A DNA stretch of 64,000 nt from Candidatus Woesearchaeota archaeon (GTDB lineage: Archaea > Nanobdellota > Nanobdellia > SCGC-AAA011-G17 > PNOQ01): contig JABJPM010000025.1 of assembly GCA_018663865.1 (NCBI GenBank), positions 9,024 to 73,023 of the forward strand, given 5' to 3'. The notes below the pieces were generated by a model. It saw nothing but the letters and a program-made list of their open reading frames with translations. It made no database searches and was not told the origin of the DNA. Shown piece after piece: positions 1 through 52,324 of this stretch; within the stretch, counting starts at the first letter, position 1, and each line of letters begins with the position of its first letter. The position numbers and the translations under genes are program-made.

Positions 1-217
1 TATCTTTTTCTAAATTTGCAGAATACCCAAGGGATTTGATTTTTTTGATAAAGTCATTTTCACTAATTTTTGATTCATTATATTCTATATTTGCATTAGA
101 GGTAGAAAAATTAACATTAGAGATTTTTACTCCATCTAATTTTTTAAGAGATTTTTCTATCAAAGTAGAACAACTTGCACAATGCATTCCAGAAATATTT
201 AATTTAATTTTTTTCAT
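1..217 (-). CDS. Partial CDS (its 5' end is in the window; the rest lies past position 1) encoding an HMA (heavy-metal-associated) domain. It could be the N-terminus of a CopA-type P1B ATPase or a CopZ-like chaperone.
   Basis: Translating the minus strand from the ATG at 217 gives MKKIKLNISGMHCASCSTLIEKSLKKLDGVKISNVNF..., which carries a GMxCxxC metal-binding motif. It is not in the ORF track because it runs off the window. Confidence 0.5.
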   Translation of the reverse strand, partial: MKKIKLNISGMHCASCSTLIEKSLKKLDGVKISNVNFSTSNANIEYNESKISENDFIKKIKSLGYSANLEKD

Positions 218-232
218 TTTAAAAAATTATCT

Positions 233-1639
233 TTATCCTCCACATCCACATCCGCCACCAGTTGCTCCGCAAGAACCTCCTGTTGGGGCAGGAAGCTTTT
301 TTATTGCAGATTGATCATAGTCACTCAGATCATCAACAACGATAAATGTGCCAGGTATCATCCCCATCCAACAACTCCAAGAGATAGTTCCACTTTCAGT
401 TGGAGTAAATTCCACAATTTGTTCACCAGGTATTACATTAAATCCCAAATCATATTTTGGAACTTGTATTGCATTATTACAACCACTTATCTCAATTCCG
501 TTTACTATCCATTTAACAGGAATTCCTTTTTGCAAAACAAATTTATTTGGAGACCAACCACTATACATCACATCCATTTTTATTTCTTGATATCCATCTT
601 TTAATACTGCAACTTCATTCGATGGCAAATCGTCATAATTTGATCCAATTGTATTACCCGTAATTAAGCTATTGGCATCATATCCGCTTCCAGTTAATGC
701 GATTCCCCTATTCATCATAACCGCACCAAGAAGAATCACAACAATTGCAGATACCTTGAGGATTTTTTTGGTAGAATTTGCGCTGATTAGTGAAGTAACA
801 AATCCAAATCCGATTAATACTGGCAATGTCCCTAATCCAAATGCAGTTAAACTTAATGCTCCATCAATCATATTTCCAGTTCCGGCTGCGTAGATATACA
901 TTGCTTGTAATGGTCCGCATGCAATAAGTAAACTATTCAATAGTCCAATTTTAAATGGATTTTTAGATTTATGTGATTCTGCAGCATATTTATTCAAAAA
1001 TTTTGGGGATTTTATTCTAATTTTTTTTAACCAAGGAAATATGTTTAACATATTTAGACCAAAGATTACGAGGAATAATCCTGCAAATAAAGCAGCATAA
1101 CCTCTCAATTGCGGAGTAAATGCTATGAACGATCCAAATAAACCAAACAATCCACCAATTGCCGCATAACCAATTGTTTTACCTAGACCATATTCAAAAT
1201 GAGATTTAAATTTGCTTTTTGATTTAGTTGCATAAGATACAACAAATCCACCACACATACCAACACAATGAAATCCAGTTAATAATCCCAAAAAGAATAA
1301 AATTCCTAAAGAGACTTCTTTTGTTAAATCAGGAAAAAAATCAAAACCAATTGTGCCTTTAACAATTATGTATGTTCCAAATAATAAGAATGCAATTCCT
1401 GCAGCCCATAAATACATAGTATTCTTTTTAGGTTTGGATGTTGAGGGAGTATACCCCTTTTTTATTATTATATCAAAGATTTCATTTTGAGTAATTTTAT
1501 TTTCATCAAATCTTATCACAACTTTGCCTTCCCCATAGTTTGCATTTATTTCTTCAACTCTATGCTCTAATGTCTTTTCTAATATTTTTTCACAACCAGT
1601 ACAAGTCATGCCAGAAATATATATTGTTTTTTCTATCAT
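233..1639 (-). CDS. Polytopic membrane protein with an N-terminal HMA domain (MTCTGC), a DsbD_2-like transmembrane core (HCVGMCGG and ACGP motifs) and a C-terminal cupredoxin-like domain ending in a Cys/Gly-rich tail. Putative copper/heavy-metal handling protein.
   Basis: 468-aa ORF. I recognised the GMTCTGC HMA motif, GFHCVGMCGG within transmembrane helices, a C-terminal beta-rich domain with Cys/Met candidate ligands (SWSCWMGMIPG), and the tail GGSCGATGGGCGCGG. Confidence 0.6.
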   Translation of the reverse strand: MIEKTIYISGMTCTGCEKILEKTLEHRVEEINANYGEGKVVIRFDENKITQNEIFDIIIKKGYTPSTSKPKKNTMYLWAAGIAFLLFGTYIIVKGTIGFDFFPDLTKEVSLGILFFLGLLTGFHCVGMCGGFVVSYATKSKSKFKSHFEYGLGKTIGYAAIGGLFGLFGSFIAFTPQLRGYAALFAGLFLVIFGLNMLNIFPWLKKIRIKSPKFLNKYAAESHKSKNPFKIGLLNSLLIACGPLQAMYIYAAGTGNMIDGALSLTAFGLGTLPVLIGFGFVTSLISANSTKKILKVSAIVVILLGAVMMNRGIALTGSGYDANSLITGNTIGSNYDDLPSNEVAVLKDGYQEIKMDVMYSGWSPNKFVLQKGIPVKWIVNGIEISGCNNAIQVPKYDLGFNVIPGEQIVEFTPTESGTISWSCWMGMIPGTFIVVDDLSDYDQSAIKKLPAPTGGSCGATGGGCGCGG

Positions 1640-1839
1640 ATTTTATATCCCTCATCCATTATCAATTCTTTAATCAATTTTAATGTTTCACTAGATCCAT
1701 TAAAATTCAATTTAATTATGTCTTTTTCATGATCGGGGATTGCATTTACAACTCCAGAAATATTTTCAAGTTCTCCTTTCAAAATAATTTCGCAACTTTT
1801 ACAATGCATACCTTCAACTTTCAATATTACCGCATCCAT
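1636..1839 (-). CDS. copZ: CopZ-like heavy-metal (copper) chaperone, a single HMA domain.
   Basis: 67 aa with GMHCKSC (MxCxxC) in a ferredoxin-like HMA fold length. It overlaps the upstream HMA membrane protein by 4 nt, which suggests an operon. Confidence 0.7.
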   Translation of the reverse strand: MDAVILKVEGMHCKSCEIILKGELENISGVVNAIPDHEKDIIKLNFNGSSETLKLIKELIMDEGYKI

Positions 1840-1892
1840 AATAGAATTAGTGGATGAAACACCTTATAAGCGATTGTAAGAAACTAGTTTCT

Positions 1893-2357
1893 TTATTTGA
1901 GTATAACCACATTGGTCATTCCACGTCGTTTTCTTTCAATAATGTTCAGCCCTTCTAATCGATCTAGGATTCTGGTGATTTTGACTTTATTAAATTCCGT
2001 TTTTTCAACTAACGTTGATTGAAAAATACTCCCATCTTCTTCTTTTATTTTATCTAAAACAAATTTTTCATTTTCATTCAACTTTTTTAAAATTTCACTA
2101 TAGTCTTTTTTAGATTCTATTGGAGAATTTATTTTTTTTCCAGAAAAAAATAGGTATGCCCCGCCAAATAATATAAATAAAACTAATCCAATACTAATAT
2201 TCGTTTGCAATTCAATAGTTCCCCACATCGCACATTCTGAACCATGGGAACAAGAATCTGCAACAATATCTTTCAAAGCCTTGTTAAATGAGAAAACTAT
2301 AAATCCAATTAATAGTGATACCCCCATTAATAATGTGCCAACTTGTTTATTCTTCAT
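1893..2357 (-). CDS. Membrane-anchored protein with a C-terminal winged-helix-like segment. Possibly a metal-responsive regulator, but uncharacterised.
   Basis: 154 aa with two N-terminal transmembrane helices and a CSHGSECAMWG Cys/His cluster between them. The C-terminal ...KITRILDRLEGLNIIERKRRG resembles a wHTH recognition helix and wing. It overlaps the glyS end by 4 nt. Confidence 0.35.
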   Translation of the reverse strand: MKNKQVGTLLMGVSLLIGFIVFSFNKALKDIVADSCSHGSECAMWGTIELQTNISIGLVLFILFGGAYLFFSGKKINSPIESKKDYSEILKKLNENEKFVLDKIKEEDGSIFQSTLVEKTEFNKVKITRILDRLEGLNIIERKRRGMTNVVILK

Positions 2358-3790
2358 TTCAAATCCTCAAACTTTAAATCACCGCTAAGCAATTCTCTAA
2401 AAATATTTTTCAATTCAGAAACTTTAACCCTAACTTGATTCATACTAGAAATTTCTCTAAGGGTAACATCTCCATCCGTCAAAGAAGCATGATCTACAGT
2501 TATACAAAATGAAGTACCAACTTCATCCATTCTCCTATATCTCCTTCCTATTGAACCAGAATCATCATAAATGCACGCAAATTCTTTATCTAAATCTGAA
2601 AACAATTCTTTGGCTAAATCTCCCATGCCATCTTTTTTCATTAAAGGGAATATTGCCACATCTATTGGGGCCATACCAGGTTCAAATTTTAACCAATCTC
2701 TCTTATCATCATCTACTAATGAGTTTTCTAATAATGCATATGCAGACCTTTCTAAACCAAAAGCTATTTCCAAAATTGTTGGGATTTCTCCCTGAACTTC
2801 CATTTTAGTTTTGGAAAATTCAGCATGCCTTTTCAAATCATAATCCTGTCTATCGTGGACACCACAGATTTCCATCCACCCATACCTTTCAGTATTGATT
2901 TCAATATCCCATGCATCCTCAGCATAAAATGCTAATTCCGAAGGATCGTGTTGTCGAATTCTTAATTTAGTTTTATCAAATCCCATGTCCAACATTAATT
3001 TGTATGCAACATAATTCATAAATGCATAAGATTCTTTTTTCATGAATTTCTTCTCAACACTTTCACCAAGTTTAATGTATTCTATTTTATCCGATCCAAA
3101 TTTCATCAAAGGCAATTCATTTTCAGAATAATCATTAAAATGCTCTTTCAATAAAAATAATTGGGCCTCCATTTGAGTAAATTCTCTGGTTCTAAAAACA
3201 CTTTGACGAGGACTTATTTCATTTCTATATGCCTTCCCAAGTTGAAAAACACCAAATGGCATCTTTGTTCTAAAAAATCTATATAGTTCTGGGAACAATA
3301 AATAAGTTGTAGTCGCTGTTTCAGGTCTTAAAAAAACTTCCTCATCAATTCCAACCACAGTACTCATCATCAAATTAACTGGTTCAACTGATCCAAATCC
3401 CCCCTTATTACAGGAAGGGCATTTTATATCTTTTTCAATCAATAGTTTACTTAATTTTTCTTCATTAAAATCATCAATATCTTCAATTAAATGGTCGACC
3501 CGATGGGATGCACCACATTTAATACATTTAGTAACATAATCTACAAAACTATCTAAGTGTCCAGATGCTTCCCAAACTTTCTGAGGCATAACTGTTGGGC
3601 ATTCAACTTCCCAAAAACTAAATCCTGAAAATCCTTTTCTTAAAACATTCTCAACTTTATTTTTTAATAATTTACCAAGTGGACCCCAATCATAAAATCC
3701 TCTCAACCCACCATCATAAATGTTTGGGCTAGGTCCCCATATGAATCCTCTTCGTTTTGCTAAATCTAGAACTTTATCTTCGATTTTCAT
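2354..3790 (-). CDS. glyS: Glycyl-tRNA synthetase, archaeal/eukaryotic class II type.
   Basis: The N-terminus LAKRRGFIWGPSPNIYDGGLRGFYDWGPLG is the hallmark of alpha2-type GlyRS. 478 aa. Confidence 0.9.
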   Translation of the reverse strand: MKIEDKVLDLAKRRGFIWGPSPNIYDGGLRGFYDWGPLGKLLKNKVENVLRKGFSGFSFWEVECPTVMPQKVWEASGHLDSFVDYVTKCIKCGASHRVDHLIEDIDDFNEEKLSKLLIEKDIKCPSCNKGGFGSVEPVNLMMSTVVGIDEEVFLRPETATTTYLLFPELYRFFRTKMPFGVFQLGKAYRNEISPRQSVFRTREFTQMEAQLFLLKEHFNDYSENELPLMKFGSDKIEYIKLGESVEKKFMKKESYAFMNYVAYKLMLDMGFDKTKLRIRQHDPSELAFYAEDAWDIEINTERYGWMEICGVHDRQDYDLKRHAEFSKTKMEVQGEIPTILEIAFGLERSAYALLENSLVDDDKRDWLKFEPGMAPIDVAIFPLMKKDGMGDLAKELFSDLDKEFACIYDDSGSIGRRYRRMDEVGTSFCITVDHASLTDGDVTLREISSMNQVRVKVSELKNIFRELLSGDLKFEDLK

Positions 3791-3828
3791 AATAACTTAG
3801 AATTTATCTTCATTTTTATAAGTTTTGT

Positions 3829-4509
3829 TTAATAACTGTGGTAATCGACTAATTTGCTCCCAATTATATCTTTGAGAGAAACAATATTATTCGCTTCCAA
3901 CCTAGGGCAAGAAGTATTTACCCATAATTTAATGTCATTAAAATCTTCTAATTTAGCAACATCAATCTCATTTTCCATAAAAACATATGCCTCTTTTCCA
4001 CAATTTTTAGCAAAATTCAAAGCGACTTTCAATGCCTGTTGCCCAGGTTTAACTGAAACCAAAATTCCAATTTTGTCTGCCATGAGGTACCTCTTTATTT
4101 TGCCTTCATTTTTTCTCTCTAGTTTAATCAAATCCTTTTTTTCAAATTTAGTAATATTGTGTGAAACAGGATTAACTAAGTAAACAGCATTAACTCCAGA
4201 ATAATTAACTAATTCAAGTGGATGAAATTCCCCACTCCCAATAAATACATATGTATCTACTTCATCTTTTATTTTAATGGCATTAGACGAGTTACAACCC
4301 ACCATTTGTCCAGCAATCACTACAGAATGGCCCTCACCCTCCAAATATTTTTCAACTTGATCTAGATAATCTATATATTGAATTGCAGAAATTAAACCAA
4401 TTCTTTTCTCTTTAATCTTTAATTTTTTAAGAACCGGCATTACATCAATATTTTTTGCTTTAGCAGGGATAAATATTGTCTTCAATCCACTGATTTTTTT
4501 ATTTTCCAT
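3829..4509 (-). CDS. Dph2-like diphthamide biosynthesis protein (2-(3-amino-3-carboxypropyl)histidine synthase family), shortened form.
   Basis: 226 aa with three spaced Cys residues including a WVNTSCPRL (CPR) motif like the Dph1/Dph2 Fe-S cysteines. It is shorter than the canonical ~340 aa. Confidence 0.4.
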   Translation of the reverse strand: MENKKISGLKTIFIPAKAKNIDVMPVLKKLKIKEKRIGLISAIQYIDYLDQVEKYLEGEGHSVVIAGQMVGCNSSNAIKIKDEVDTYVFIGSGEFHPLELVNYSGVNAVYLVNPVSHNITKFEKKDLIKLERKNEGKIKRYLMADKIGILVSVKPGQQALKVALNFAKNCGKEAYVFMENEIDVAKLEDFNDIKLWVNTSCPRLEANNIVSLKDIIGSKLVDYHSY

Positions 4510-4543
4510 AGAAATAATAAAAAAACGATGTTAAAAAACCTTT

Positions 4544-5062
4544 CTATTTCAATTTAGAAACTTCAGTTTTATCAGATATAATCGCAGAATTCCCACTCTT
4601 ATCTTCAATAATGATTTTCAAAGGGATTTCCCCCAATTTAACTTTCCATATTTTTTTTAATAAATTCTTTGCTTTTTTACGAATAGTCTTATCATCAGTC
4701 GTATCTCTCTGGGTTTCTAAAATCTTTTCAAATCTCCCTATTAATCCTTCGACATTGGTAACAAAACCTTCCGAATTCTCTCCAGGATCCATAGACATTC
4801 TTAAACCAGGAAGTTTAACTTTAGCAGTACTAGATTTAATCACTCTTGAAAATAAATCTTCCTCACAATTAACTTCAAATACTATTTTAGCAGGATCTTT
4901 TTTCTCTTTAAATTCAACATCTGCTTTAGAGAATCCACATTCAGAACACTGCATAGCAAAAACAAAAGTTTTACCAAAATATGGAACCTCAATTTCTCTA
5001 TCTCTTAACGTCAATCCATTTTTCCCACAAACGGGGCAAGGTTGTTTAGTCGATTCTTCCAT
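4544..5062 (-). CDS. ZPR1-type zinc-finger protein.
   Basis: 172 aa with CPVCG...CSECG (C4 zinc ribbon) followed by a ZPR1-like beta domain. Confidence 0.65.
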   Translation of the reverse strand: MEESTKQPCPVCGKNGLTLRDREIEVPYFGKTFVFAMQCSECGFSKADVEFKEKKDPAKIVFEVNCEEDLFSRVIKSSTAKVKLPGLRMSMDPGENSEGFVTNVEGLIGRFEKILETQRDTTDDKTIRKKAKNLLKKIWKVKLGEIPLKIIIEDKSGNSAIISDKTEVSKLK

Positions 5063-5094
5063 AATTAATAAAAAAAGAATAAGTATTTATAAAA

Positions 5095-5499
5095 TTATTC
5101 GTCTCCAAATGATTCCATTGCATTAGTTCTATGTACACTGGCAAAACTAGGAGTAACTACTATCCAATCTCCACCAAATCCTGCGATATCACCATCTATT
5201 GCATCACAAGTTTTTTTCAATTTATTAACTGCTCTTTTTAATTCAATCATATCTCTTTCTCTCAATGGCCCAATATTAACTAAAGCAATTGTATATCCTT
5301 CTCTCAATGAATCAAGTACAGGTTTTATATCTGAAAAATCTTGAACAATAAATGGCCTAACTACTATTCTAGCTTTGGGAACATCCCCGTCGGCAGTTAA
5401 TTCAACATAATCTTCTTCGAACTCTTTAGGCATATCTTCATCATAGGAAAATTCTTTTTGTCCCACACTACTTTTTATTTTTGAAAGGAATTTTTTCAT
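5095..5499 (-). CDS. sepF: Cell division protein SepF (DUF552), the archaeal FtsZ membrane anchor.
   Basis: 134 aa with the SepF-core-like ...RIVVRPFIVQDFSDIKPVLDSLREGYTIALVNIG...DGDIAGFGGDWIVVTP. ftsZ is about 2.6 kb away. Confidence 0.7.
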   Translation of the reverse strand: MKKFLSKIKSSVGQKEFSYDEDMPKEFEEDYVELTADGDVPKARIVVRPFIVQDFSDIKPVLDSLREGYTIALVNIGPLRERDMIELKRAVNKLKKTCDAIDGDIAGFGGDWIVVTPSFASVHRTNAMESFGDE

Positions 5500-5536
5500 C
5501 TTAACAAGGGAAATATTAGCAAATTTATAAACATTT

Positions 5537-5791
5537 CTATTGTTTAATACATTCTAATTTTGATACTATAGAATAAATTTGAGTTTTTGTAAAAGCAGGC
5601 AAATTTGAATTTTCAGAAACATCATCCAATTCTTGCAAAGATGAATCAACTTTCATAAAAATATCTCTTTCTTTACAATTCAATGCATCGATCGCACATC
5701 CAATTTTCTTCCGGATATTTCTTGGAATATCTTCATCTTTGTGCAATTCAGAAAGTAAATCTAATATTTCTAAAACCTGATCATTGTTCAT
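5537..5791 (-). CDS. UPF0147 family small archaeal protein.
   Basis: 84 aa. The IPRNIRKK motif and C-terminal SKLE.IK match my memory of UPF0147 proteins. Confidence 0.45.
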   Translation of the reverse strand: MNNDQVLEILDLLSELHKDEDIPRNIRKKIGCAIDALNCKERDIFMKVDSSLQELDDVSENSNLPAFTKTQIYSIVSKLECIKQ

Positions 5792-6119
5792 TTTTCATAG
5801 ATTCCATAACTTCTTTTTGTAATTCAGATGCCTCTTCTCTCAGTTTTCCTTCTTCTTTTTCTAAATTTGAAATTTTCATATCAGCCATTTCTTTTTTTGA
5901 CGTTAATTCTTCTTTCAATTTAGCCTTATCTACTGAGATCATAACATTACCTACAACTTTGTAAGTATCATCAGAATTATCAATTTCTTTTAAAGCGTTA
6001 TCGGATTCCATACTTTGAGTTTGAAATGATTGTTTTTGCATTGCGAAACTTTGCAATCTTTGTTCCAACATTTGTAGTTTAGAAATTTTCTTTTTTGTAT
6101 TGTCATCTATATTTTCCAT
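5781..6119 (-). CDS. pfdB: Prefoldin beta subunit.
   Basis: 112 aa with a coiled-coil/beta-hairpin/coiled-coil layout (QMLEQRLQSF...YKVVGNVMISVDKAKLKEEL...). It sits in the conserved L37ae-rpoP-pfdB neighbourhood. Confidence 0.75.
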   Translation of the reverse strand: MENIDDNTKKKISKLQMLEQRLQSFAMQKQSFQTQSMESDNALKEIDNSDDTYKVVGNVMISVDKAKLKEELTSKKEMADMKISNLEKEEGKLREEASELQKEVMESMKNEQ

Positions 6120-6120
6120 T

Positions 6121-6258
6121 TTAAACCGCCTTTACCTTGGTGCTAACGGATCTAGGTTTAAATAATATCTTTGATCCGCAATATATACACCTAATTCTTT
6201 TTCTTAAGGATGTACTTTCTATTTTTTTCCCACAATTAAAACATTTATATTCAGCCAT
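6121..6258 (-). CDS. rpoP: DNA-directed RNA polymerase subunit P (Rpo12/RpoP).
   Basis: Manual translation of the minus strand gives MAEYKCFNCGKKIESTSLRKRIRCIYCGSKILFKPRSVSTKVKAV, 45 aa, with a CxxC...CxxC zinc ribbon. It lies 2 nt downstream of L37ae. It is not in the ORF track because it is under 60 aa. Confidence 0.8.
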   Translation of the reverse strand: MAEYKCFNCGKKIESTSLRKRIRCIYCGSKILFKPRSVSTKVKAV

Positions 6259-6259
6259 T

Positions 6260-6472
6260 TTATTCACCTAGTGTATATGCCCTTCCAGCAAATTTAGTAT
6301 CACATTTATGGCAATGCCAAATTCCAGAACTAACTCTTTTAACACTATGTTTTAAACATAATGGGCATTCATAAAGTTTTTTTTGTTTCTCTTCAATATT
6401 AAGTCTCTTTCGCTTCAATGGTGCACCGTATCGTGCCCCGAATCTTCCGCTTCCTTTAGTTTTTTTTACCAT
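6260..6472 (-). CDS. rpl37ae: Ribosomal protein L37ae (eL43).
   Basis: 70 aa with MVKKTKGSGRFGARYGAPLKRK...CPLC...CHKC zinc ribbon. Confidence 0.9.
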   Translation of the reverse strand: MVKKTKGSGRFGARYGAPLKRKRLNIEEKQKKLYECPLCLKHSVKRVSSGIWHCHKCDTKFAGRAYTLGE

Positions 6473-6533
6473 CTTTCTAAAACTCTACTTTCAGAGTTAA
6501 ATTTCCGTTTAAAAGCCTTTCTAATTTTGAATA

Positions 6534-6606
6534 TGGGGTAACGAGGATTTGAACCCCGATTCCGACGCCCCAAACGTCGAGTGCTACCAAGTTACACCAT
6601 TACCCC
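6534..6606 (-). tRNA. tRNA-Pro (anticodon UGG).
   Basis: I folded the cloverleaf manually on the minus strand. The acceptor stem GGGGTAA/TTACCCC is fully Watson-Crick, the anticodon stem is CGACG/CGTCG with loop TTTGGGG (UGG), the T-loop is TTCAAAT, and the discriminator is A. No CCA is encoded. Confidence 0.85.
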
Positions 6607-6660
6607 TCAATAGTTCAACCGGTTTTAATGTATTAATAAATGTTACTAAAATAAAAAAAA

Positions 6661-7323
6661 TTAAGAAGATGGCTCTTCTTTTTCAGTCGCTTCTTCAGCA
6701 ATTGCAGTATCAGCAGCTTTATCTTCTTCGATTTTAGCCAATTCTTTACTGTACCTTTCCTCTAAAGAATCATTTACACTCTTTAAATCAGAACTTAATT
6801 GTTTAAGTTTATCCTCACTAACTTCTGTTTTTCCAGAATTTATTAGATCATCATATTTGCCATCATCAATTTCCTTAAGAATTATATTTAATTGTTTACC
6901 TTCAACAATAATTCCCATCGGTCCACAACTTCCAACAACTGTTTTTACAGATGCCTTAAGATCTTTAGATAACATAGAATCTGTTTTCATTTTAGCAACC
7001 TTGATAATTTGTTCAATTGCCATATTAGCAGATTTTTTAATTTTTTGTAATCCTGAGCCCTTTTGGATATTAAGTTCTTTTTTCATAAGTTCAGAAACAG
7101 GTGGTGTACCAATTTCCAAATCAAAAGATTTATCATCAGTATCCACAATAACTGTAACTGGGACTTTCATACCTTTAAAATCTGCAGTTTTTTCATTAAT
7201 TTTCGCTAAAATCTCTTGAATATTTACTCCAAGTGGACCAAATGCTTGTCCCATTGCAGGACCTGCTGTAGCTTTTCCGCCTTCAACCATTACTTCTACT
7301 TTTTCGTTACTCATCTTTTTCAT
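6661..7323 (-). CDS. rpl11: Ribosomal protein L11 (uL11) with an acidic C-terminal extension.
   Basis: MVEGGKATAGPAMGQAFGPLGVNI is the L11 signature. 220 aa. Confidence 0.9.
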   Translation of the reverse strand: MKKMSNEKVEVMVEGGKATAGPAMGQAFGPLGVNIQEILAKINEKTADFKGMKVPVTVIVDTDDKSFDLEIGTPPVSELMKKELNIQKGSGLQKIKKSANMAIEQIIKVAKMKTDSMLSKDLKASVKTVVGSCGPMGIIVEGKQLNIILKEIDDGKYDDLINSGKTEVSEDKLKQLSSDLKSVNDSLEERYSKELAKIEEDKAADTAIAEEATEKEEPSS

Positions 7324-7795
7324 CTCCTTCCCTTCTTATCACTTTAACTGAATCCAAACTTACAGTAATTGGAATCGGAACTGCAGCCTCTAATAATTCA
7401 ACTACTACTTCCTCTTTTGTTTCGTCAATTCTAACTATTTTTGCCTTTTCTCTTTTGAAAGGGCCCGAAATAATTTCAACAATATCATTCTTTCTAATAT
7501 CTACTGTGGCCTTTGCCTGTTCAATCATATGTTCAATTTCAGAATAATCTAAATTACCTGGCAATATTCCTCTTGCATATGGGACTCCGGCACATGCTTC
7601 TTCAGCATCTGCTCTGCTTCGTGCCTCGATAAATACATAACCCCTTAATCCATGAGGTTTAAATATACTATAAACGTGCAATCCTTTTTTTTCAACATTT
7701 GCAGAGACAAAATCTAAAACTTGATCCTCTCTGTTTGCCGTTGTCCTTAAAGTTAATATTTCTACTTCCTGAGTTGTTGTTGTTTCTGATTCCAT
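7307..7795 (-). CDS. spt5: Transcription elongation factor Spt5 (archaeal NusG).
   Basis: 162 aa with an NGN domain plus a KOW motif (...IVEIISGPFKREKAKIVRID...). It sits between secE and L11 as in other archaea. Confidence 0.85.
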   Translation of the reverse strand: MESETTTTQEVEILTLRTTANREDQVLDFVSANVEKKGLHVYSIFKPHGLRGYVFIEARSRADAEEACAGVPYARGILPGNLDYSEIEHMIEQAKATVDIRKNDIVEIISGPFKREKAKIVRIDETKEEVVVELLEAAVPIPITVSLDSVKVIRREGDEKDE

Positions 7796-7796
7796 T

Positions 7797-7997
7797 TTAA
7801 CCTATTAATAATCTCCATACCAAATGAATTAAAAAACCCATGGCACCAATCAATAATATTCCAATTCCTGTAACTTTTACCGTGATTTTTAACTCTTCAT
7901 TTGTTGGTTTTTTTGTAATCTTGAATACTCTCTTACTTTGAGTTATAAAACTTTTCAATTTCGAGATTATGCTTCTTTTTCTGTTTTCGTGTTCCAT
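7797..7997 (-). CDS. secE: Preprotein translocase subunit SecE (Sec61 gamma).
   Basis: 66 aa with a single C-terminal transmembrane helix and a basic N-terminus, in the conserved position upstream of spt5. Confidence 0.7.
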   Translation of the reverse strand: MEHENRKRSIISKLKSFITQSKRVFKITKKPTNEELKITVKVTGIGILLIGAMGFLIHLVWRLLIG

Positions 7998-8082
7998 CTT
8001 GGGCTATTAACTCCTTAGAATAACATATGTTGAGGAAAATATTTAATTTATAAAGGTTTCTAAAATAAAAAGAAAAGTAGAT

Positions 8083-9210
8083 TTAATCTACAAAATCAAT
8101 ACCAAGTTCATTTTCAATTTCTTTTTTCTCAACTTCTTTATTGATTTTCCTTGGTCCGAAGATTTGAGGGCTGTGAACACCTGTGACAATCAACATAACC
8201 CTCAATGTTTTTTCTAAATCTTCCATAACTTGTGCTCCCCAAATAATTCTTGCATCTTCATCAAGTTTTTCAGAAACAGATTCGACAACTTTTTTTGCTT
8301 CTTCCAAAGTCATATCTGCGCCACCACAAACATTGATCAAAGCGCCGTTTGCACCAGTTATATCTACATCTAATAATGGATTATGGATTGCCTTTTCTAC
8401 AGCTTCTCCTGCACGATTTTCACTATCGGATTCACCGACGCCAATCATTGCAACCCCGCCATTCCCCATCACAGTTTTTATGTCTGCAAAATCAAGATTA
8501 ACCAATCCTGCTTTAGTAACTAACTCTGCAATGCCTTTTACCGCATTCGTCAAGATTTCATCTGCAACCTTAAATGCTGTGTGCAATGGTAGATCGGGAG
8601 CTAACTCCAACAATTTATCATTCGGTATAACAATTAATGTATCCACAATACTCTCCATTTTTTCAAGGCCAAGTATTGCATTCTCATATCTCCTGTGGCC
8701 TTCCATTTCAAAAGGAAGTGTAATAATTCCAACAGTCAATATACCTGCTTTTTTAGCAATATCTGCAATAACGGGTGCAGCACCTGTTCCAGTTCCACCG
8801 CCCATTCCACATGTGATAAATGCCATATCTGCGCCTTTTATAACTTCGCGAATGTCATGTTCACTCTCTCTTGCAGATTCTTCCCCAACTTGAGGAATAC
8901 TTCCTGCTCCAAGTCCCTGAGTCAATTCTTTACCAATTAAAATTTTATGATCTGCATTAGTATATAATAAATCTTGGGCATCAGTGTTAACTGCAACCGT
9001 TTCAGCACCAGTAATTCCCACTTCAGAAATCCTATTAATGGTATTATTTCCTCCACCACCAGCACCAATAACTTTTATTTTCGCCTTCTGTTTTGATAAA
9101 ATTGCTTCCAATTCTTCATCAACAGAGCTTAACCTTTCAGGCATCCTTTTGTCATATCTATTAGGAATAACTGGATTCCTATCTTGAACGTTTTGAATCA
9201 TACTATCCAT
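8083..9210 (-). CDS. ftsZ: Cell division GTPase FtsZ.
   Basis: KVIGAGGGGNNTINRI tubulin signature (GGGTGTG-type) together with the T7 loop. 375 aa. Confidence 0.95.
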   Translation of the reverse strand: MDSMIQNVQDRNPVIPNRYDKRMPERLSSVDEELEAILSKQKAKIKVIGAGGGGNNTINRISEVGITGAETVAVNTDAQDLLYTNADHKILIGKELTQGLGAGSIPQVGEESARESEHDIREVIKGADMAFITCGMGGGTGTGAAPVIADIAKKAGILTVGIITLPFEMEGHRRYENAILGLEKMESIVDTLIVIPNDKLLELAPDLPLHTAFKVADEILTNAVKGIAELVTKAGLVNLDFADIKTVMGNGGVAMIGVGESDSENRAGEAVEKAIHNPLLDVDITGANGALINVCGGADMTLEEAKKVVESVSEKLDEDARIIWGAQVMEDLEKTLRVMLIVTGVHSPQIFGPRKINKEVEKKEIENELGIDFVD

Positions 9211-9291
9211 TTAAAATCCCCCTTATATTTGTCATATGGTATCAAGAAAGGGAATCCAATTTAATTTATAAAGTTAATTATCCTAAAGTGG

Positions 9292-9963
9292 TTATTTAGG
9301 TTTTTCCTCTATAAATTCAATTTTTTTAAGCTCAGGAACTAGTTTTTTGAATTTTTCTGCAAAACTTTTCTGAATTTGTTCCGGCATTTTAATTTTAGAA
9401 GTAATTTCAAGATTTCCCTCTGTTAAAGTCTTACTAAACATGTCAGGGCCAAACATTTCTAACCCAAATTTCATAACACTGTTTACCTTTTCTTTAATAT
9501 CCTCAACTTTTTTTAAAATTTTGAAAGTATAAACTAATTCTCTTCCTGCCAACGGATGGTTAAAATCTAAATTGACCCTCCCTCCACTAACACTTCGAAC
9601 AGTTCCGATCATTCCATCTGCATTAATTTGTAACCCTGGATAAGGGTTCATTTTTTGTTTTCTAAATAAGGACATGGAGACAATTTTCATTTTTTTGGGA
9701 TCTTTTTTACCAAATGCATTATCAGGAGATACCACTATTTCATATTCTTTATCTATATCTTTATCCCCTAATTCAGAATCTAATCCCTGTAAAACATTTT
9801 TTTCACCAATACAAATTGTAATTGGGCCATACTTCATTTTTTCATTATAAATATCATTAGTTTTTGCAATTTTTTGATCGGAAGTATCAAACACTTTATT
9901 CATCAATTTAATCTTACCTGTATATTCCAATTCAACGAAATCGCCTTTCTTTACTTTTACCAT
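9292..9963 (-). CDS. FKBP-type peptidyl-prolyl cis-trans isomerase, long archaeal form with an insert-in-flap domain.
   Basis: MVKVKKGDFVELEYTGK...VNLDFNHPLAGRELVYTFKIL is an FKBP core. 223 aa. Confidence 0.85.
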   Translation of the reverse strand: MVKVKKGDFVELEYTGKIKLMNKVFDTSDQKIAKTNDIYNEKMKYGPITICIGEKNVLQGLDSELGDKDIDKEYEIVVSPDNAFGKKDPKKMKIVSMSLFRKQKMNPYPGLQINADGMIGTVRSVSGGRVNLDFNHPLAGRELVYTFKILKKVEDIKEKVNSVMKFGLEMFGPDMFSKTLTEGNLEITSKIKMPEQIQKSFAEKFKKLVPELKKIEFIEEKPK

Positions 9964-10048
9964 AGTATAGTTTGAGTTTAGACTTATTATTTAAATTTAA
10001 CTGTACAACAAAAACTTTTTAAATTTATTCCCACTCCCCCATGGTAAG

Positions 10049-30282: not shown

Positions 30283-30354
30283 AGCGCACGCCCGGACTCG
30301 AACCGGGGATCAGAGGGTTGCAGCCTCTTGCCTTAGCCGCTTGGCTACGCACGC
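30283..30354 (-). tRNA. tRNA-Cys (anticodon GCA).
   Basis: Manual fold of the minus strand. The anticodon stem is AGAGG/CCTCT with loop CTGCAAC (GCA), the T-loop is TTCGAGT, and the discriminator is U. The acceptor stem has two G-U pairs. Confidence 0.75.
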
Positions 30355-30404
30355 ATATAAATAGCAAACAATATTCACTTATAAAAATATCGAAAAATAA
30401 TGAG

Positions 30405-30480
30405 CGGGCGCGAAGGGATTTGAACCCTCGACCCCTAGCTTAGAAGGCTAGTGCTCTAATCCAAGCTGAGCTACGCACCC
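30405..30480 (-). tRNA. tRNA-Arg (anticodon UCU).
   Basis: Manual fold. The acceptor stem is GGGTGCG/CGCGCCC, the D-arm is GCTC...GAGC, the anticodon stem is CTAGC/GCTAG with loop CTTCTAA (UCU), the T-loop is TTCAAAT, and the discriminator is G. Confidence 0.8.
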
Positions 30481-45459: not shown

Positions 45460-45464
45460 AAACC

Positions 45465-45538
45465 TGGCACCGCCCGAATTTGAATCGGGGTTATAAGGCC
45501 CCCAGCCTTATGTGATAACCAAGCTACACTACGGCACC
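45465..45538 (-). tRNA. tRNA-Pro (anticodon GGG).
   Basis: Manual fold. The anticodon stem is TAAGG/CCTTA with loop CTGGGGG (GGG), the T-arm is CCCGA-TTCAAAT-TCGGG, the acceptor stem is GGTGCCG/CGGTGCC, and the discriminator is A. Confidence 0.75.
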
Positions 45539-45551
45539 AAATAAAAAAAAG

Positions 45552-45625
45552 CGGCCTCGAGGGGATTTGAACCCCTATCTACCGGGCCGAAACCGATGGC
45601 TCTATCCAAATTAAGCTACAAGGCC
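45552..45625 (-). tRNA. tRNA-Arg (anticodon UCG).
   Basis: Manual fold. The acceptor stem is GGCCTTG/CGAGGCC, the anticodon stem is ATCGG/CCGGT with loop TTTCGGC (UCG), the T-arm is AGGGG-TTCAAAT-CCCCT, and the discriminator is G. Confidence 0.75.
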
Positions 45626-52230: not shown

Positions 52231-52305
52231 GCCCCGGTGGCTCAGTCTGGTTAGAGCACATGGCTGTTAACCATGGGGTCGCAAGTTCAAATCTTGCCCG
52301 GGGCG
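52231..52305 (+). tRNA. tRNA-Asn (anticodon GUU).
   Basis: Fully canonical cloverleaf. The acceptor stem is GCCCCGG/CCGGGGC, the D-arm is GCTC-AGTCTGGTTA-GAGC, the anticodon stem is CATGG/CCATG with loop CTGTTAA, the T-arm is GCAAG-TTCAAAT-CTTGC, and the discriminator is G. Confidence 0.9.
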
Positions 52306-52324
52306 CTCATTTTCGACAAAACAA

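What the first reader, a model, noticed from the sequence alone, without database searches (positions are those of the whole stretch)
1..2357. Copper-handling cluster with an unusual HMA / DsbD_2-like transmembrane / cupredoxin fusion protein
Three consecutive minus-strand genes each carry an MxCxxC HMA domain. The first is a partial gene at the window edge that may be the CopA N-terminus. The second is a 468-aa membrane protein. The third is a CopZ-like chaperone. A membrane-anchored wHTH-like protein follows. The 468-aa protein combines an N-terminal cytoplasmic HMA domain, a transmembrane core with HCxxMCGG and ACGP motifs of the DsbD_2 type, a C-terminal extracytoplasmic cupredoxin-like domain and a Cys/Gly tail (GGSCGATGGGCGCGG). 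This architecture suggests relay of copper or electrons across the membrane and is not a standard annotated family combination.
Basis: partly seen in the sequence, partly recalled or inferred. Interest (0 to 1): 0.55.

Follow-up and report, generated by a model that had tools for sequence, protein, structure and literature searches.

The report
Archaeal copper operon with membrane relay protein
This is a conserved copper-resistance operon of a DPANN (Woesearchaeota-like) archaeon, and its 468-residue membrane protein, common in databases but never studied, probably passes copper between a binding domain inside the cell and a CupA-type copper-binding domain outside it.

Summary
Window 1-2357 (minus strand) carries four genes. 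They are a membrane-anchored wHTH regulator, a CopZ chaperone, a 468-aa HMA / 7-TM DsbD_2 / cupredoxin-like fusion, and the first 72 codons of a CopA Cu(I) ATPase. The fusion is one intact ORF. An identical copy and relatives 80-82% identical and of almost the same length exist, so it is not a frameshift artefact.

The claim that the architecture is non-standard fails. Thousands of homologues exist in DPANN archaea, methanotrophs, Firmicutes and Actinobacteria. They are named "sulfite exporter TauE/SafE/copper chaperone CopZ" or "possible membrane copper tolerance protein". I found no functional study.

Most likely the protein relays Cu(I) across the membrane by ligand exchange, alongside CopZ and CopA. 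The direction is unresolved. A DsbD-like electron relay remains a live rival.

I also found a 12-bp palindrome flanking the cop TATA box. It is strongly conserved and covaries with the subtype of the membrane-anchored regulator. Interest is moderate.

The parts
1..217 (-). 5' end (72 codons) of copA, a P1B-1 Cu(I)-exporting ATPase, comprising its N-terminal HMA metal-binding domain. The gene is cut by the window edge.
   Evidence: Pfam HMA E=2.9e-18. It is 79% identical over 72 aa to the start of the 718-aa ATPase in syntenic locus L001. That ATPase has CPC, YN, MAMSS and DKTGT.
233..1639 (-). 468-aa fusion protein: cytoplasmic HMA, TM0, 6-TM DsbD_2 core, extracytoplasmic CupA-like domain and Cys/Gly tail.
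1442..1639 (-). HMA domain of the fusion (residues 1-66, GMTCTGC).
1352..1417 (-). Extra helix TM0 (residues 75-96), which lets a cytoplasmic HMA precede an N-out 6-TM core.
   Evidence: Hydropathy and loop-charge analysis. The helix spans residues 75-96 in the AF2 model. It is absent from the bacterial relatives of 335-400 aa that lack the fused HMA; the 426-aa Chlorohelix protein has an N-terminal extension with a TM0-like helix but no HMA.
695..1309 (-). 6-TM DsbD_2 core (residues 111-315), with HCxxMCGG in TM1 (nt 1247-1270) and ACGP in TM4 (nt 911-922).
   Evidence: Pfam DsbD_2 158.9 bits and DsbD_TM 31.3 bits. Invariant columns are listed. C125 and C241 are invariant even in relatives only 23-27% identical.
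332..610 (-). CupA-type cupredoxin-fold Cu(I)-binding domain (residues 344-436). Predicted ligands are C387, C423, M425 and M427.
236..280 (-). C-terminal Cys/Gly tail GGSCGATGGGCGCGG (residues 454-468), predicted disordered.
   Evidence: C457, C464 and C466 are at least 90% conserved. pLDDT is below 50 for residues 445-468.
1636..1839 (-). copZ, a 67-aa HMA metallochaperone. Its stop codon overlaps the fusion's start codon (ATGA).
   Evidence: Pfam HMA E=7.5e-8 and NCBIfam CopZ model E=2.9e-11, the latter below its cut-off. It lies upstream of the fusion in 48 of 63 assessable archaeal loci.
1855..1891 (-). cop promoter and operator: palindrome GAAACTAGTTTC (1880-1891), TATA-like CTTATAAGG (1862-1870) and half-site GTTTCA (1855-1860), ending 15 nt before the copZ ATG.
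   Evidence: It is the only site in the window. It is invariant in 8 aligned relatives. It is exact in 30 of 84 loci, and within 1 mismatch in 35 of 80, always in the same layout.
1893..2357 (-). 154-aa membrane-anchored wHTH regulator. It has a 2-TM helical hairpin with a C36-x-H38-G-x-x-C42-x-M44-W45 tip (nt 2223-2252), a disordered linker, and a MarR/ArsR-like wHTH (nt 1896-2102).
   Evidence: Pfam DUF7343 41.3 bits. At least 1372 homologues. Invariant C36, H38, G39 and C42. AF2 model. Foldseek top matches are ArsR/MarR proteins. It lies upstream of the fusion in 51 of 63 archaeal loci.

Best explanation
The region is a conserved DPANN-archaeal cop operon: regulator, then promoter/operator, then copZ, the fusion gene and copA.

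The 468-aa fusion is most likely an accessory soft-metal relay or transporter, with Cu(I) (possibly also Ag(I)) as substrate. It would move the ion by ligand exchange along a chain of sulfur sites:
1. The cytoplasmic HMA CxxC, which can exchange Cu(I) with CopZ.
2. An intramembrane site built from C125 in TM1 and C241 in TM4, supplemented in this subfamily by H124, M128 and C129.
3. The extracytoplasmic CupA-type binuclear site (C387, C423, M425, M427).
4. The flexible Cys/Gly tail.

The gene is co-transcribed with a Cu(I) exporter from a promoter that carries a repressor-type operator. I therefore infer that it works under copper excess and moves or hands off Cu(I) outward, or captures Cu(I) released by CopA at the outer face. 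I estimate roughly 60:40 for outward against inward.

Shown here: the domain identities, motif conservation, gene linkage, and topology by charge rule and by a fused LysM domain.

Inferred only: the substrate, the relay itself and its direction.

The 2-TM wHTH protein is inferred to be the operon's regulator. It would sense metal at the Cys/His/Met tip of its extracytoplasmic hairpin and bind the palindrome that flanks the TATA box.
For: Domains:
- HMA and DsbD_2 by Pfam.

Soft-metal ligands: His, Met and Cys (H124, C125, M128, C129, C241) are invariant in TM1 and TM4 of 61 homologues. His and Met are not needed for thiol-disulfide exchange.

The HMA partner is always present. It is fused in archaea, Firmicutes and proteobacteria. 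It is encoded as a separate 72-aa gene immediately downstream in Actinobacteria, Deinococcus and Chloroflexi. This is Rosetta-stone evidence that the core works with a metallochaperone domain.

Linkage:
- copA lies within 2.5 kb downstream in 60 of 61 assessable archaeal loci.
- The relative's CopA has the P1B-1 Cu(I) motifs.
- The proteobacterial homologue sits beside a CusAB-like RND pump.

Separate CcdA+TlpA genes sit beside the bacterial versions. A dedicated thiol-reducing pathway therefore exists in addition to this protein.

Topology is N-in, C-out, supported by the LysM fusion.

The DsbD family belongs to the LysE superfamily of heavy-metal exporters, and copper and mercury resistance are among its reported roles (PMC4608589).

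Regulator and operator:
- The palindrome is conserved at a fixed distance from the TATA box and the ATG.
- 31 of 35 palindrome-bearing loci also carry the 2-TM regulator.
- By my reading of the alignment against the table, every locus with the CxHGxxCxM-type regulator (or its close variant CTCGDxCxM) except L019 has the palindrome. None of the 22 loci with other loop types has it.
- About half of those 22 loci carry a different recurring element, TAAACGnTCTGGGAC-like.
Against: - There is no experimental datum for any family member.
- Relatives only 23-27% identical keep just one Cys in TM1 and one in TM4. This is exactly the CcdA/DsbD redox-pair arrangement.
- The direction is unresolved. The closest functional analogies, MerP-MerT-NmerA and CopC-CopD, are importers, and two bacterial relatives sit next to merA or merB.
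- A passive or pmf-driven exporter beside an ATP-driven one looks redundant.
- The topology is predicted, not measured.
- The ArsR-type gene downstream of copA in the closest relatives could be the real copper sensor.
Confidence: 0.5

Rival explanations
1. DsbD/CcdA-like electron conduit. The TM1 and TM4 cysteines form a redox-active pair that carries reducing equivalents from the cytoplasm to the outside. There they keep the cysteines of the cupredoxin domain and tail reduced so that these can bind Cu(I). Alternatively they drive reduction of Cu(II) to Cu(I) at the CupA-like S1 site, making the protein a transmembrane cupric reductase or thiol-repair system.
For: - Pfam DsbD_2 and DsbD_TM hits.
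- The only universally invariant TM residues across distant relatives are one Cys in TM1 and one in TM4, as in CcdA.
- The C-terminal domain sits where DsbD's periplasmic gamma domain sits.
- CupA reduces Cu(II) in vitro through C74 and C111, and needs an unidentified reductant (PMC5646241).
- Thioredoxin reductase and thioredoxin genes lie 4-5 genes downstream in syntenic contigs.
- DsbD-family members are described as electron carriers with roles in copper resistance (PMC4608589).
Against: - HMA domains are metal-binding modules, and I know of no case where one serves as an electron donor (background knowledge). Yet an HMA is fused or adjacent in every lineage examined.
- No thioredoxin-fold acceptor is fused or adjacent in the archaeal operon.
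- The invariant H124 and M128 next to the cysteines are metal ligands and are not needed for disulfide exchange.
- The bacterial loci carry separate bona fide CcdA+TlpA genes.
- Making Cu(I) outside the cell is not an obvious benefit under copper stress.
Confidence: 0.2
2. Inward relay (importer) analogous to MerP-MerT-NmerA or CopC-CopD. The outer cupredoxin domain and tail capture Cu(I), Ag(I) or Hg(II). The TM thiols pass it inward to the HMA and CopZ, either for sensing and controlled re-export by CopA, or for reduction by MerA in the bacterial mer-linked versions.
For: - The layout has the same logic as the Mer relay: an outer binding module, TM cysteines and a cytoplasmic HMA.
- The Tsukamurella relative lies directly upstream of an HMA gene and merA, and the Deinococcus relative lies near merB and a MerR gene.
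- From memory and not tested here: InterPro names the DsbD_2 domain 'UreH-like', and UreH-type proteins are nickel importers.
- From background knowledge: CopCD is a precedent for an importer inside a resistance operon.
Against: - The window and its syntenic relatives have no merA; the nearby pyridine-nucleotide oxidoreductase is a 312-aa thioredoxin-reductase-sized protein.
- The gene is co-transcribed with a Cu(I) exporter, so induction under copper excess would be self-harming.
- The Met-rich CxMxM site is typical of Cu(I)/Ag(I) rather than Hg(II).
- The MerTP model matches only the HMA part, at 38.6 bits against a cut-off of 180.
Confidence: 0.2
3. Passive extracytoplasmic Cu(I) buffer. 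The cupredoxin domain and Cys tail simply sequester Cu(I) at the cell surface, as S. aureus CopL does. The membrane core is only an anchor or an evolutionary relic.
For: - The outer domain and tail together offer about 5 Cys and 2 Met.
- Tandem duplication of the CupA-like domain in Altiarchaeota-type homologues raises binding capacity.
- From background knowledge: surface Cu(I)-binding lipoproteins occur in Gram-positive cop operons.
Against: - The strict invariance of the intramembrane H/C/M/C and CGP motifs and of the cytoplasmic HMA CxxC is not expected of a mere anchor.
- Stoichiometric binding is a weak resistance mechanism.
Confidence: 0.07

Closest known systems
CupA, the membrane-anchored Cu(I) chaperone of Streptococcus pneumoniae (PDB 4F2E/2MRY), and the cupredoxin-type metal-binding domain of its CopA (4F2F)
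   Same: - Same ligand pattern, one Cys followed about 36 residues later by CxMxM.
- Also encoded in a cop operon next to a Cu(I) ATPase.
   Different: - CupA is a small protein with one N-terminal anchor helix, acts on the cytoplasmic side, and pairs with a CopA that has a cupredoxin-type MBD (PMC7558416).
- Here the domain is the C-terminus of a 7-TM protein, is predicted to be outside the cell, is followed by a Cys/Gly tail, and the partner CopA has an ordinary HMA domain.
- CupA is described as restricted to a few streptococci. This domain has 2137 cluster representatives in the 1.84-billion-protein library.
DsbD/CcdA transmembrane thiol-disulfide electron transporters (TC 5.A.1; Pfam DsbD_TM and DsbD_2, LysE superfamily)
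   Same: - Homologous 6-TM core.
- One conserved Cys in TM1 and one in TM4, each beside Gly or Pro.
- N-out/C-out core with an extracytoplasmic C-terminal acceptor domain.
- Reported involvement in copper and mercury resistance (PMC4608589).
   Different: - The cytoplasmic partner is an HMA metallochaperone domain, not thioredoxin.
- The outer domain is a Cu(I)-binding cupredoxin fold, not a thioredoxin fold.
- Extra invariant His, Met and Cys are present in TM1.
Mer relay (MerP, MerT, NmerA, and MerTP fusions)
   Same: The design is the same: an outer metal-binding module, intramembrane cysteines, a cytoplasmic HMA domain, and hand-over by thiol ligand exchange. Some bacterial relatives are mer-linked.
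   Different: - There is no homology of the membrane part to MerT. Only the HMA portion matches the MerTP model, far below its cut-off.
- The outer module is cupredoxin-like rather than HMA.
- The operon partner is a Cu(I) exporter, not MerA.
Canonical copZ-copA operons with a soluble repressor (CopY, CsoR, CueR, or the archaeal TRASH-domain CopR)
   Same: It has a CopZ chaperone, a P1B-1 ATPase, and a palindromic operator overlapping the promoter.
   Different: - An additional polytopic membrane protein is present.
- The linked regulator is anchored in the membrane by a 2-TM hairpin, and its conserved Cys/His/Met cluster lies on the extracytoplasmic side. This resembles ToxR/CadC-type one-component membrane regulators more than any characterised copper sensor.

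Membership tests
HMA (PF00403) metallochaperone-type domain | Ferredoxin-like beta-alpha-beta-beta-alpha-beta fold with a GMxCxxC metal-binding loop | tested here: met
   [not shown]
DsbD_2 (PF13386), LysE/DsbD clan | 6-TM core matching the family profile above the gathering score | tested here: met
   158.9 bits against a cut-off of 24.9, covering profile positions 2-198 of 199. DsbD_TM scores 31.3 bits against 27.1.
DsbD/CcdA electron transporter (function) | One essential redox-active Cys in TM1 and one in TM4 | tested here: met
   C125 and C241 are invariant in 61 close relatives and in the 7 distant relatives aligned with the window protein. Their redox activity was not tested.
DsbD/CcdA electron transporter (function) | Thioredoxin-fold acceptor (fused gamma domain, or a TlpA/ResA/CcmG partner) and cytoplasmic thioredoxin as donor | tested here: not met
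   The fused outer domain has the CupA cupredoxin fold. No thioredoxin-fold gene lies in the operon; the thioredoxin gene is 5 genes away in relatives. Dependence on a thioredoxin donor is not testable in silico.
CupA-type Cu(I) chaperone | Cupredoxin-like beta-barrel with a binuclear Cu(I) site formed by Cys74, Cys111, Met113 and Met115 | tested here: met
   [not shown]
CupA-type Cu(I) chaperone | Single N-terminal membrane anchor, cytoplasmic location, and a cognate CopA with a cupredoxin-type MBD | tested here: not met
   The domain follows 7 TM helices and is predicted to be outside the cell. The adjacent CopA starts with an HMA domain.
Type-1 (blue) copper cupredoxin, electron transfer | His...Cys-x(n)-His-x(n)-Met copper ligands | tested here: not met
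   The ligand loop is SCWMGMIPG, and no conserved His occurs in the domain.
Pfam Cupredoxin_1 (PF13473) | Score at or above the gathering cut-off of 27 bits | tested here: not met
   The window's domain scores 15.5 bits, E=0.018, though it covers profile positions 18-104 of 104. Homologues P0021 and P0069 pass with 47.6 and 36.6 bits. Membership of the wider family is therefore likely, but this sequence is below threshold.
TauE/SafE sulfite exporter (the name NCBI and JGI give to homologues) | Match to the TauE family profile | tested here: not met
   No TauE hit at E<=0.1 in Pfam. Only DsbD_2, DsbD_TM and HMA passed their cut-offs. The database name is a clan-level carry-over and says nothing about substrate.
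MerT/MerTP mercury transporter | Match of the membrane part to the MerT or MerTP models above cut-off | tested here: not met
   NF033556 MerTP scores 38.6 bits against a cut-off of 180, and only over the HMA portion, residues 4-64.
P1B-1 Cu(I) ATPase CopA (the partial gene) | CPC in TM6, YN in TM7, MxxSS in TM8 and the DKTGT phosphorylation site | not testable with these tools
   Only 72 codons lie in the window. The ATPase of syntenic locus L001, 79% identical over those 72 residues, has CPC370, DKTGT414, YN670 and MAMSS699.
MarR/ArsR-type wHTH regulator (DUF7343) | Winged helix-turn-helix domain matching the profile, plus a palindromic operator | tested here: met
   DUF7343 scores 41.3 bits against 27.6; MarR scores 23.5 against 24.6. 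The top Foldseek matches are ArsR, MarR, CzrA and NolR proteins, with weak E-values of about 5e-3. A conserved palindrome covaries with the regulator subtype. DNA binding was not tested.

The most novel reading that the evidence does not exclude
The HMA / DsbD_2 / CupA-like proteins are a previously unrecognised class of non-ATPase, thiol-lined Cu(I) transporters derived from the DsbD electron-carrier fold. They would hand copper between a cytoplasmic metallochaperone domain and an extracytoplasmic CupA-type site. In DPANN archaea they would be controlled by a new kind of one-component sensor: a wHTH repressor held in the membrane by a helical hairpin whose Cys-His-Cys-Met tip reads copper outside the cell.
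Probability: 0.3. Interest if true: 0.7.

Novelty: new variant of a known kind. Interest (0 to 1): 0.4.

Why it matters
How copper crosses membranes without P-type ATPases or RND pumps is poorly understood, above all in archaea.

This family is very widespread. At least 558 species-level genomes carry it, across DPANN archaea, methanotrophs, Firmicutes and Actinobacteria. It is almost always linked to CopA and an HMA chaperone, yet it is mislabelled 'sulfite exporter' and I found no functional study of it.

Three points follow:
- CupA-type copper sites are not confined to a few streptococci.
- In this family they are predicted to sit on the outer face of the membrane.
- The DsbD fold may have been recruited for metal relay, or conversely may supply electrons to a copper site.

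The conserved operator and the membrane-anchored regulator also give a directly testable model for copper sensing in organisms that cannot yet be cultured alone.

For this particular window, however, the locus is an ordinary member of that family in a housekeeping chromosomal context.

Tried and rejected
1. Frameshift or artefactual fusion. Rejected: the ORF is continuous, an identical protein exists, and many relatives have the same length.
2. Blue-copper electron-transfer cupredoxin. Rejected: there are no His ligands, and the best matches are CupA and the CopA-MBD.
3. Sulfite exporter TauE/SafE, the database name. Rejected: there is no TauE profile match.
4. MerT-like mercury transporter in this locus. 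Not supported: only the HMA part matches MerTP, and no merA is present.
6. Literature searches for DsbD_2/PF13386, TauE with copper, cycZ-like, the mer operon with TauE, DUF7343, and DPANN with copper. None found a functional study.
7. Sigma-70 promoter and terminator scan. Uninformative for an archaeon, with counts at shuffle level.
8. The ArsR-type gene downstream of copA as the palindrome's binder. Considered less likely, because it occurs in only 8 of 80 loci against 31 of 35 for the 2-TM regulator. It is not excluded.
9. Horizontally acquired metal island. Not supported. GC content is uniform at 0.27-0.35. The flanking genes are housekeeping genes: a class-II aaRS, diphthamide synthase, ZPR1, SepF and prefoldin. 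The order is syntenic in several relatives.


Full report
**1. What is in the sequence**

Window 1-2357 holds four minus-strand genes. In order of transcription they are:
- A 154-aa ORF (1893-2357). Its ATG overlaps the stop codon of the preceding class-II aminoacyl-tRNA synthetase gene.
- A 53-nt intergenic region.
- A 67-aa HMA protein (1636-1839).
- A 468-aa ORF (233-1639). Its ATG overlaps the stop codon of the 67-aa gene (ATGA).
- After 15 nt, an ORF that begins at 217 and runs off the window edge.

Pfam confirms an HMA domain in all three metal-binding proteins. It places a DsbD_2 core (158.9 bits) at residues 114-306 of the 468-aa protein and a DUF7343/MarR wHTH at residues 95-153 of the 154-aa protein.

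**2. The partial gene is copA**

Contigs from related Woesearchaeota MAGs carry fusion proteins 80-82% identical to this one. They show the same gene order: aaRS, DUF7343 protein, HMA protein, fusion, then a 718-aa HMA + E1-E2 ATPase + hydrolase protein. An ArsR-type gene, rubrerythrin, glutamate dehydrogenase, thioredoxin reductase and thioredoxin follow.

The 72 residues in the window are 79% identical to the start of that ATPase. The ATPase carries CPC, YN, MAMSS and DKTGT. By established classification these are the P1B-1 Cu(I)/Ag(I) exporter signatures.

**3. The fusion is real, and its parts**

The ORF is uninterrupted. An identical protein and many relatives of the same length occur in independent assemblies. 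In an alignment of 61 homologues (A1):
- The HMA GMxCxxC is at least 90% conserved.
- H124-C125-x-x-M128-C129-G-G in TM1 and A240-C241-G-P in TM4 are invariant.
- C387 and S422-C423-x-M425-G-M427 in the C-terminal domain are invariant.
- The tail cysteines C457, C464 and C466 are at least 90% conserved.

Pfam gave no match for the C-terminal 130 residues when the whole protein was scanned at E <= 0.1. The isolated domain scores only 15.5 bits against Cupredoxin_1, below the 27-bit cut-off. Other evidence settles the fold:
- A sequence search of solved structures hits the S. pneumoniae Cu(I) chaperone CupA (E = 1.7e-12) and the cupredoxin-type metal-binding domain of its CopA (E = 6e-6).
- The aligned residues are the CupA ligands Cys74, Cys111, Met113 and Met115 described in PMC5646241 and PMC7558416.
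- There are no type-1 His ligands.

The cupredoxin fold is therefore confirmed, but it is a Cu(I)-binding CupA-type site, not an electron-transfer blue-copper site.

**4. Topology**

Hydropathy analysis and the AF2 model both give seven helices. The first, TM0 (residues 75-96), precedes the six-helix DsbD_2 core. K+R counts in successive loops are 12 (N-terminal part), 1, 4, 1, 8, 0 and 2. This is a clean positive-inside pattern for an N-in, C-out protein.

Two further observations agree:
- Most bacterial relatives without the fused HMA also lack TM0 and start directly with TM1. This fits an N-out/C-out six-helix core as in CcdA (established knowledge).
- The Methylocapsa acidiphila homologue carries an additional C-terminal LysM peptidoglycan-binding domain, which must be periplasmic.

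The CupA-like domain and the disordered Cys/Gly tail (pLDDT below 50) are therefore predicted to be extracytoplasmic. This is the opposite side from CupA itself. It is an inference and has not been measured.

**5. How common is it**

The architecture is not unusual:
- The word-indexed search returned 3801 proteins at E <= 1e-5. All of the top 120 carry DsbD_2, 119 of them also HMA, and some also Cupredoxin_1.
The best 80 are mostly DPANN archaea (Woese-, Nano-, Alti-, Micr-, Aenigm- and Undinarchaeota). Methanoperedens, methanotrophs (Methylocapsa, Methylocella, Methylocystis, Methylothermaceae) and other Proteobacteria also appear.
- A Clostridia homologue is 39.5% identical over 96% of the length.
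- The CupA-like domain alone has 2137 cluster representatives in the 1.84-billion-protein library. It is often in two or three tandem copies. CupA is described in the literature as confined to a few streptococci.
- Database names include 'sulfite exporter TauE/SafE/(plastocyanin domain-containing protein/)copper chaperone CopZ' and 'heavy metal transporter'.
[quoted passage not shown] Neither assigns a function.
- The TauE name has no support from profiles.

**6. Gene linkage**

I screened ORFs in the 80 fetched loci with phmmer. Among the archaeal loci:
- copA follows within 2.5 kb on the same strand in 60 of 61 loci with enough downstream sequence.
- A free-standing copZ precedes the fusion in 48 of 63.
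- The 2-TM wHTH gene lies upstream in 51 of 63.

In Methylocapsa the neighbour is instead a CusA/CusB-like RND pump.

On actinobacterial, Deinococcus and Chloroflexi plasmids the relative has no fused HMA. In five loci examined (Tsukamurella, Deinococcus, Mycolicibacterium, Streptomyces, Chlorohelix) a small separate gene, annotated as an HMA-domain protein in four and as a cation transporter in one, follows immediately. A P1B ATPase lies beside it in three, a MerR-type regulator in two, and CcdA and/or TlpA genes in three. merA plus a multicopper oxidase, or merB, lie nearby in two. This split-versus-fused pattern is Rosetta-stone evidence that the core works with an HMA domain.

**7. Mechanism**

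Two readings fit the anatomy.

(a) A metal relay. Cu(I) is handed by ligand exchange between the HMA CxxC, an intramembrane thiolate site and the outer CupA-type site and tail. This is the logic of MerP-MerT-NmerA.

(b) A DsbD-like electron relay. Reducing equivalents pass from the cytoplasm through the TM1/TM4 cysteine pair to the outer cysteines.

In favour of (a):
- The HMA partner is universal.
- His124 and Met128 are invariant beside the TM cysteines in this subfamily.
- The outer site is Met-rich and of the Cu(I) type.
- Genuine CcdA/TlpA genes sit next to the bacterial versions.
- The DsbD family belongs to the LysE superfamily of metal exporters.

In favour of (b):
- In relatives only 23-27% identical, one Cys in TM1 and one in TM4 survive and the other TM ligands do not. 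This is exactly the CcdA arrangement.
- CupA reduces Cu(II) in vitro through its two cysteines, using an unknown reductant.

I rate (a) at about 0.5 for relay with outward or exchange function, plus 0.2 for the inward variant. I rate (b) at about 0.2.

Direction is inferred only from co-transcription with a Cu(I) exporter, which favours outward movement or capture. The importer analogies and the mer linkage count against it.

**8.

The 154-aa protein belongs to a family of at least 1372 members, named hypothetical, 'uncharacterized membrane protein' or MarR.
- C36, H38, G39 and C42 are invariant, and M44 and W45 nearly so.
- The AF2 model shows two long helices (residues 3-35 and 43-74) joined by this Cys-His-Cys turn, then a disordered linker and a wHTH. 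The best fold matches of the wHTH are ArsR/MarR repressors.
- Given the lysine-rich N-terminus and the cytoplasmic wHTH, the metal-ligand tip should project on the outer side of the membrane.

Immediately after the regulator's stop codon lies a perfect palindrome, GAAACTAGTTTC (1880-1891). A TATA-like CTTATAAGG (1862-1870) follows after 9 nt. A third half-site, GTTTCA (1855-1860), comes next, and the copZ ATG lies 15 nt further on.
- This layout is invariant in eight relatives whose fusion proteins are as little as about 51% identical to this one.
- The exact 12-mer occurs once in the 64-kb window.
- It occurs in 30 of 84 loci, and within one mismatch in 35 of 80 loci, almost always in front of copZ or the fusion. 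I estimate that well under one exact occurrence would be expected by chance in the 0.9 Mb searched.
- 31 of the 35 palindrome-bearing loci encode the 2-TM regulator, while only 8 encode the ArsR-type protein.
- By my reading of the alignment against the table, every locus with the CxHGxxCxM-type regulator (or its close variant CTCGDxCxM) except L019 has the palindrome. None of the 22 loci with other loop types has it.
- About half of those 22 loci show a different recurring element, TAAACGnTCTGGGAC-like.

This covariation makes the membrane-anchored wHTH protein the likely operator-binding regulator. An operator flanking the TATA box is typical of archaeal repressors (established knowledge). 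No binding has been shown.

**9. Verdict**

It is wrong on rarity.

The locus is an ordinary, chromosomally embedded member of a very large family. GC content is uniform and the flanks are syntenic housekeeping genes. That family is consistently linked to CopA and has no characterised member I could find.

Relative to characterised systems (CopZ/CopA, CupA, DsbD/CcdA, Mer) it is a new variant: a cop operon with an added HMA / DsbD-fold / CupA-fold membrane protein and a membrane-anchored regulator. Interest is moderate at 0.4. A copper-homeostasis specialist would find the extracytoplasmic, widespread CupA-type domain and the regulator-operator pair worth testing. Nothing here, however, overturns current understanding, and the mechanism remains inferred.

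Noticed in passing
window 1855-1891 (also L001 7749-7760, L004 7418-7429 and 26 further loci): A 12-bp perfect palindrome, GAAACTAGTTTC, lies upstream of a TATA-like CTTATAAGG and a third half-site GTTTCA, ending 15 nt before the copZ ATG. The layout is conserved across DPANN lineages. It co-occurs with the regulator subtype that has a CxHGxxCxM (or CTCGDxCxM) loop.
   Followed up: yes
window 2223-2252 (residues 36-45 of the 154-aa regulator): An invariant C-x-H-G-x-x-C-x-M-W motif forms the tip of a predicted 2-TM helical hairpin. It is a candidate extracytoplasmic metal-sensing site on a membrane-anchored wHTH protein. The family has at least 1372 members, and I found no papers on DUF7343.
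   Followed up: partly
window 2354-2357 and 1636-1639: There are two ATGA stop/start overlaps. The regulator's start overlaps the stop of the upstream class-II aaRS gene, so the regulator is probably expressed with a housekeeping gene and lies outside the regulated promoter. The stop of copZ overlaps the start of the fusion, which suggests translational coupling.
   Followed up: no
P0018-P0036 and P0021 (621 aa); one search hits with 2-3 matched stretches: Altiarchaeota-type homologues of 589-675 aa carry two tandem CupA-like domains. Many proteins of 280-330 aa consist of two such domains without the DsbD_2 core.
   Followed up: partly
L068 5851-7713 (Methylocapsa acidiphila B2) and neighbours at 899-5296: The methanotroph homologue has an extra C-terminal LysM domain and lies divergently from a CusA/CusB-like RND efflux pair. 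Several methanotrophs (Methylocapsa, Methylocella, Methylocystis, Methylothermaceae) and Methanoperedens carry the family.
   Followed up: partly
L085 5725-8606 (Tsukamurella plasmid); L086 5764-7011 and 9550-10985 (Deinococcus plasmid): In the bacterial two-gene version a DsbD_2-cupredoxin protein is followed by a separate 72-aa HMA gene. In Tsukamurella it sits between a P-type ATPase and merA plus a multicopper oxidase. In Deinococcus it is near merB and a MerR gene. This raises the possibility that some subfamilies handle mercury.
   Followed up: partly
L001 11639-11929, L004 11278-11568 (beyond the window's left edge): In the closest relatives a 96-aa ArsR/SmtB-type HTH_5 protein with three cysteines follows copA. 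It may be a second, cytoplasmic metal sensor of the operon. Whether this genome has it cannot be seen from the window.
   Followed up: no
window 1-10000: All called genes in the first 6 kb are on the minus strand. GC skew is negative throughout, GC content is 0.27-0.39, and the housekeeping neighbours are syntenic. The cop operon is part of the core chromosome, not an island.
   Followed up: partly
window 6534-6606, 30283-30480, 45464-45625, 52231-52306: There are six tRNA genes (Pro-TGG, Cys-GCA, Arg-TCT, Pro-GGG, Arg-TCG, Asn-GTT). No other Rfam family reached its gathering score in the window.
   Followed up: no
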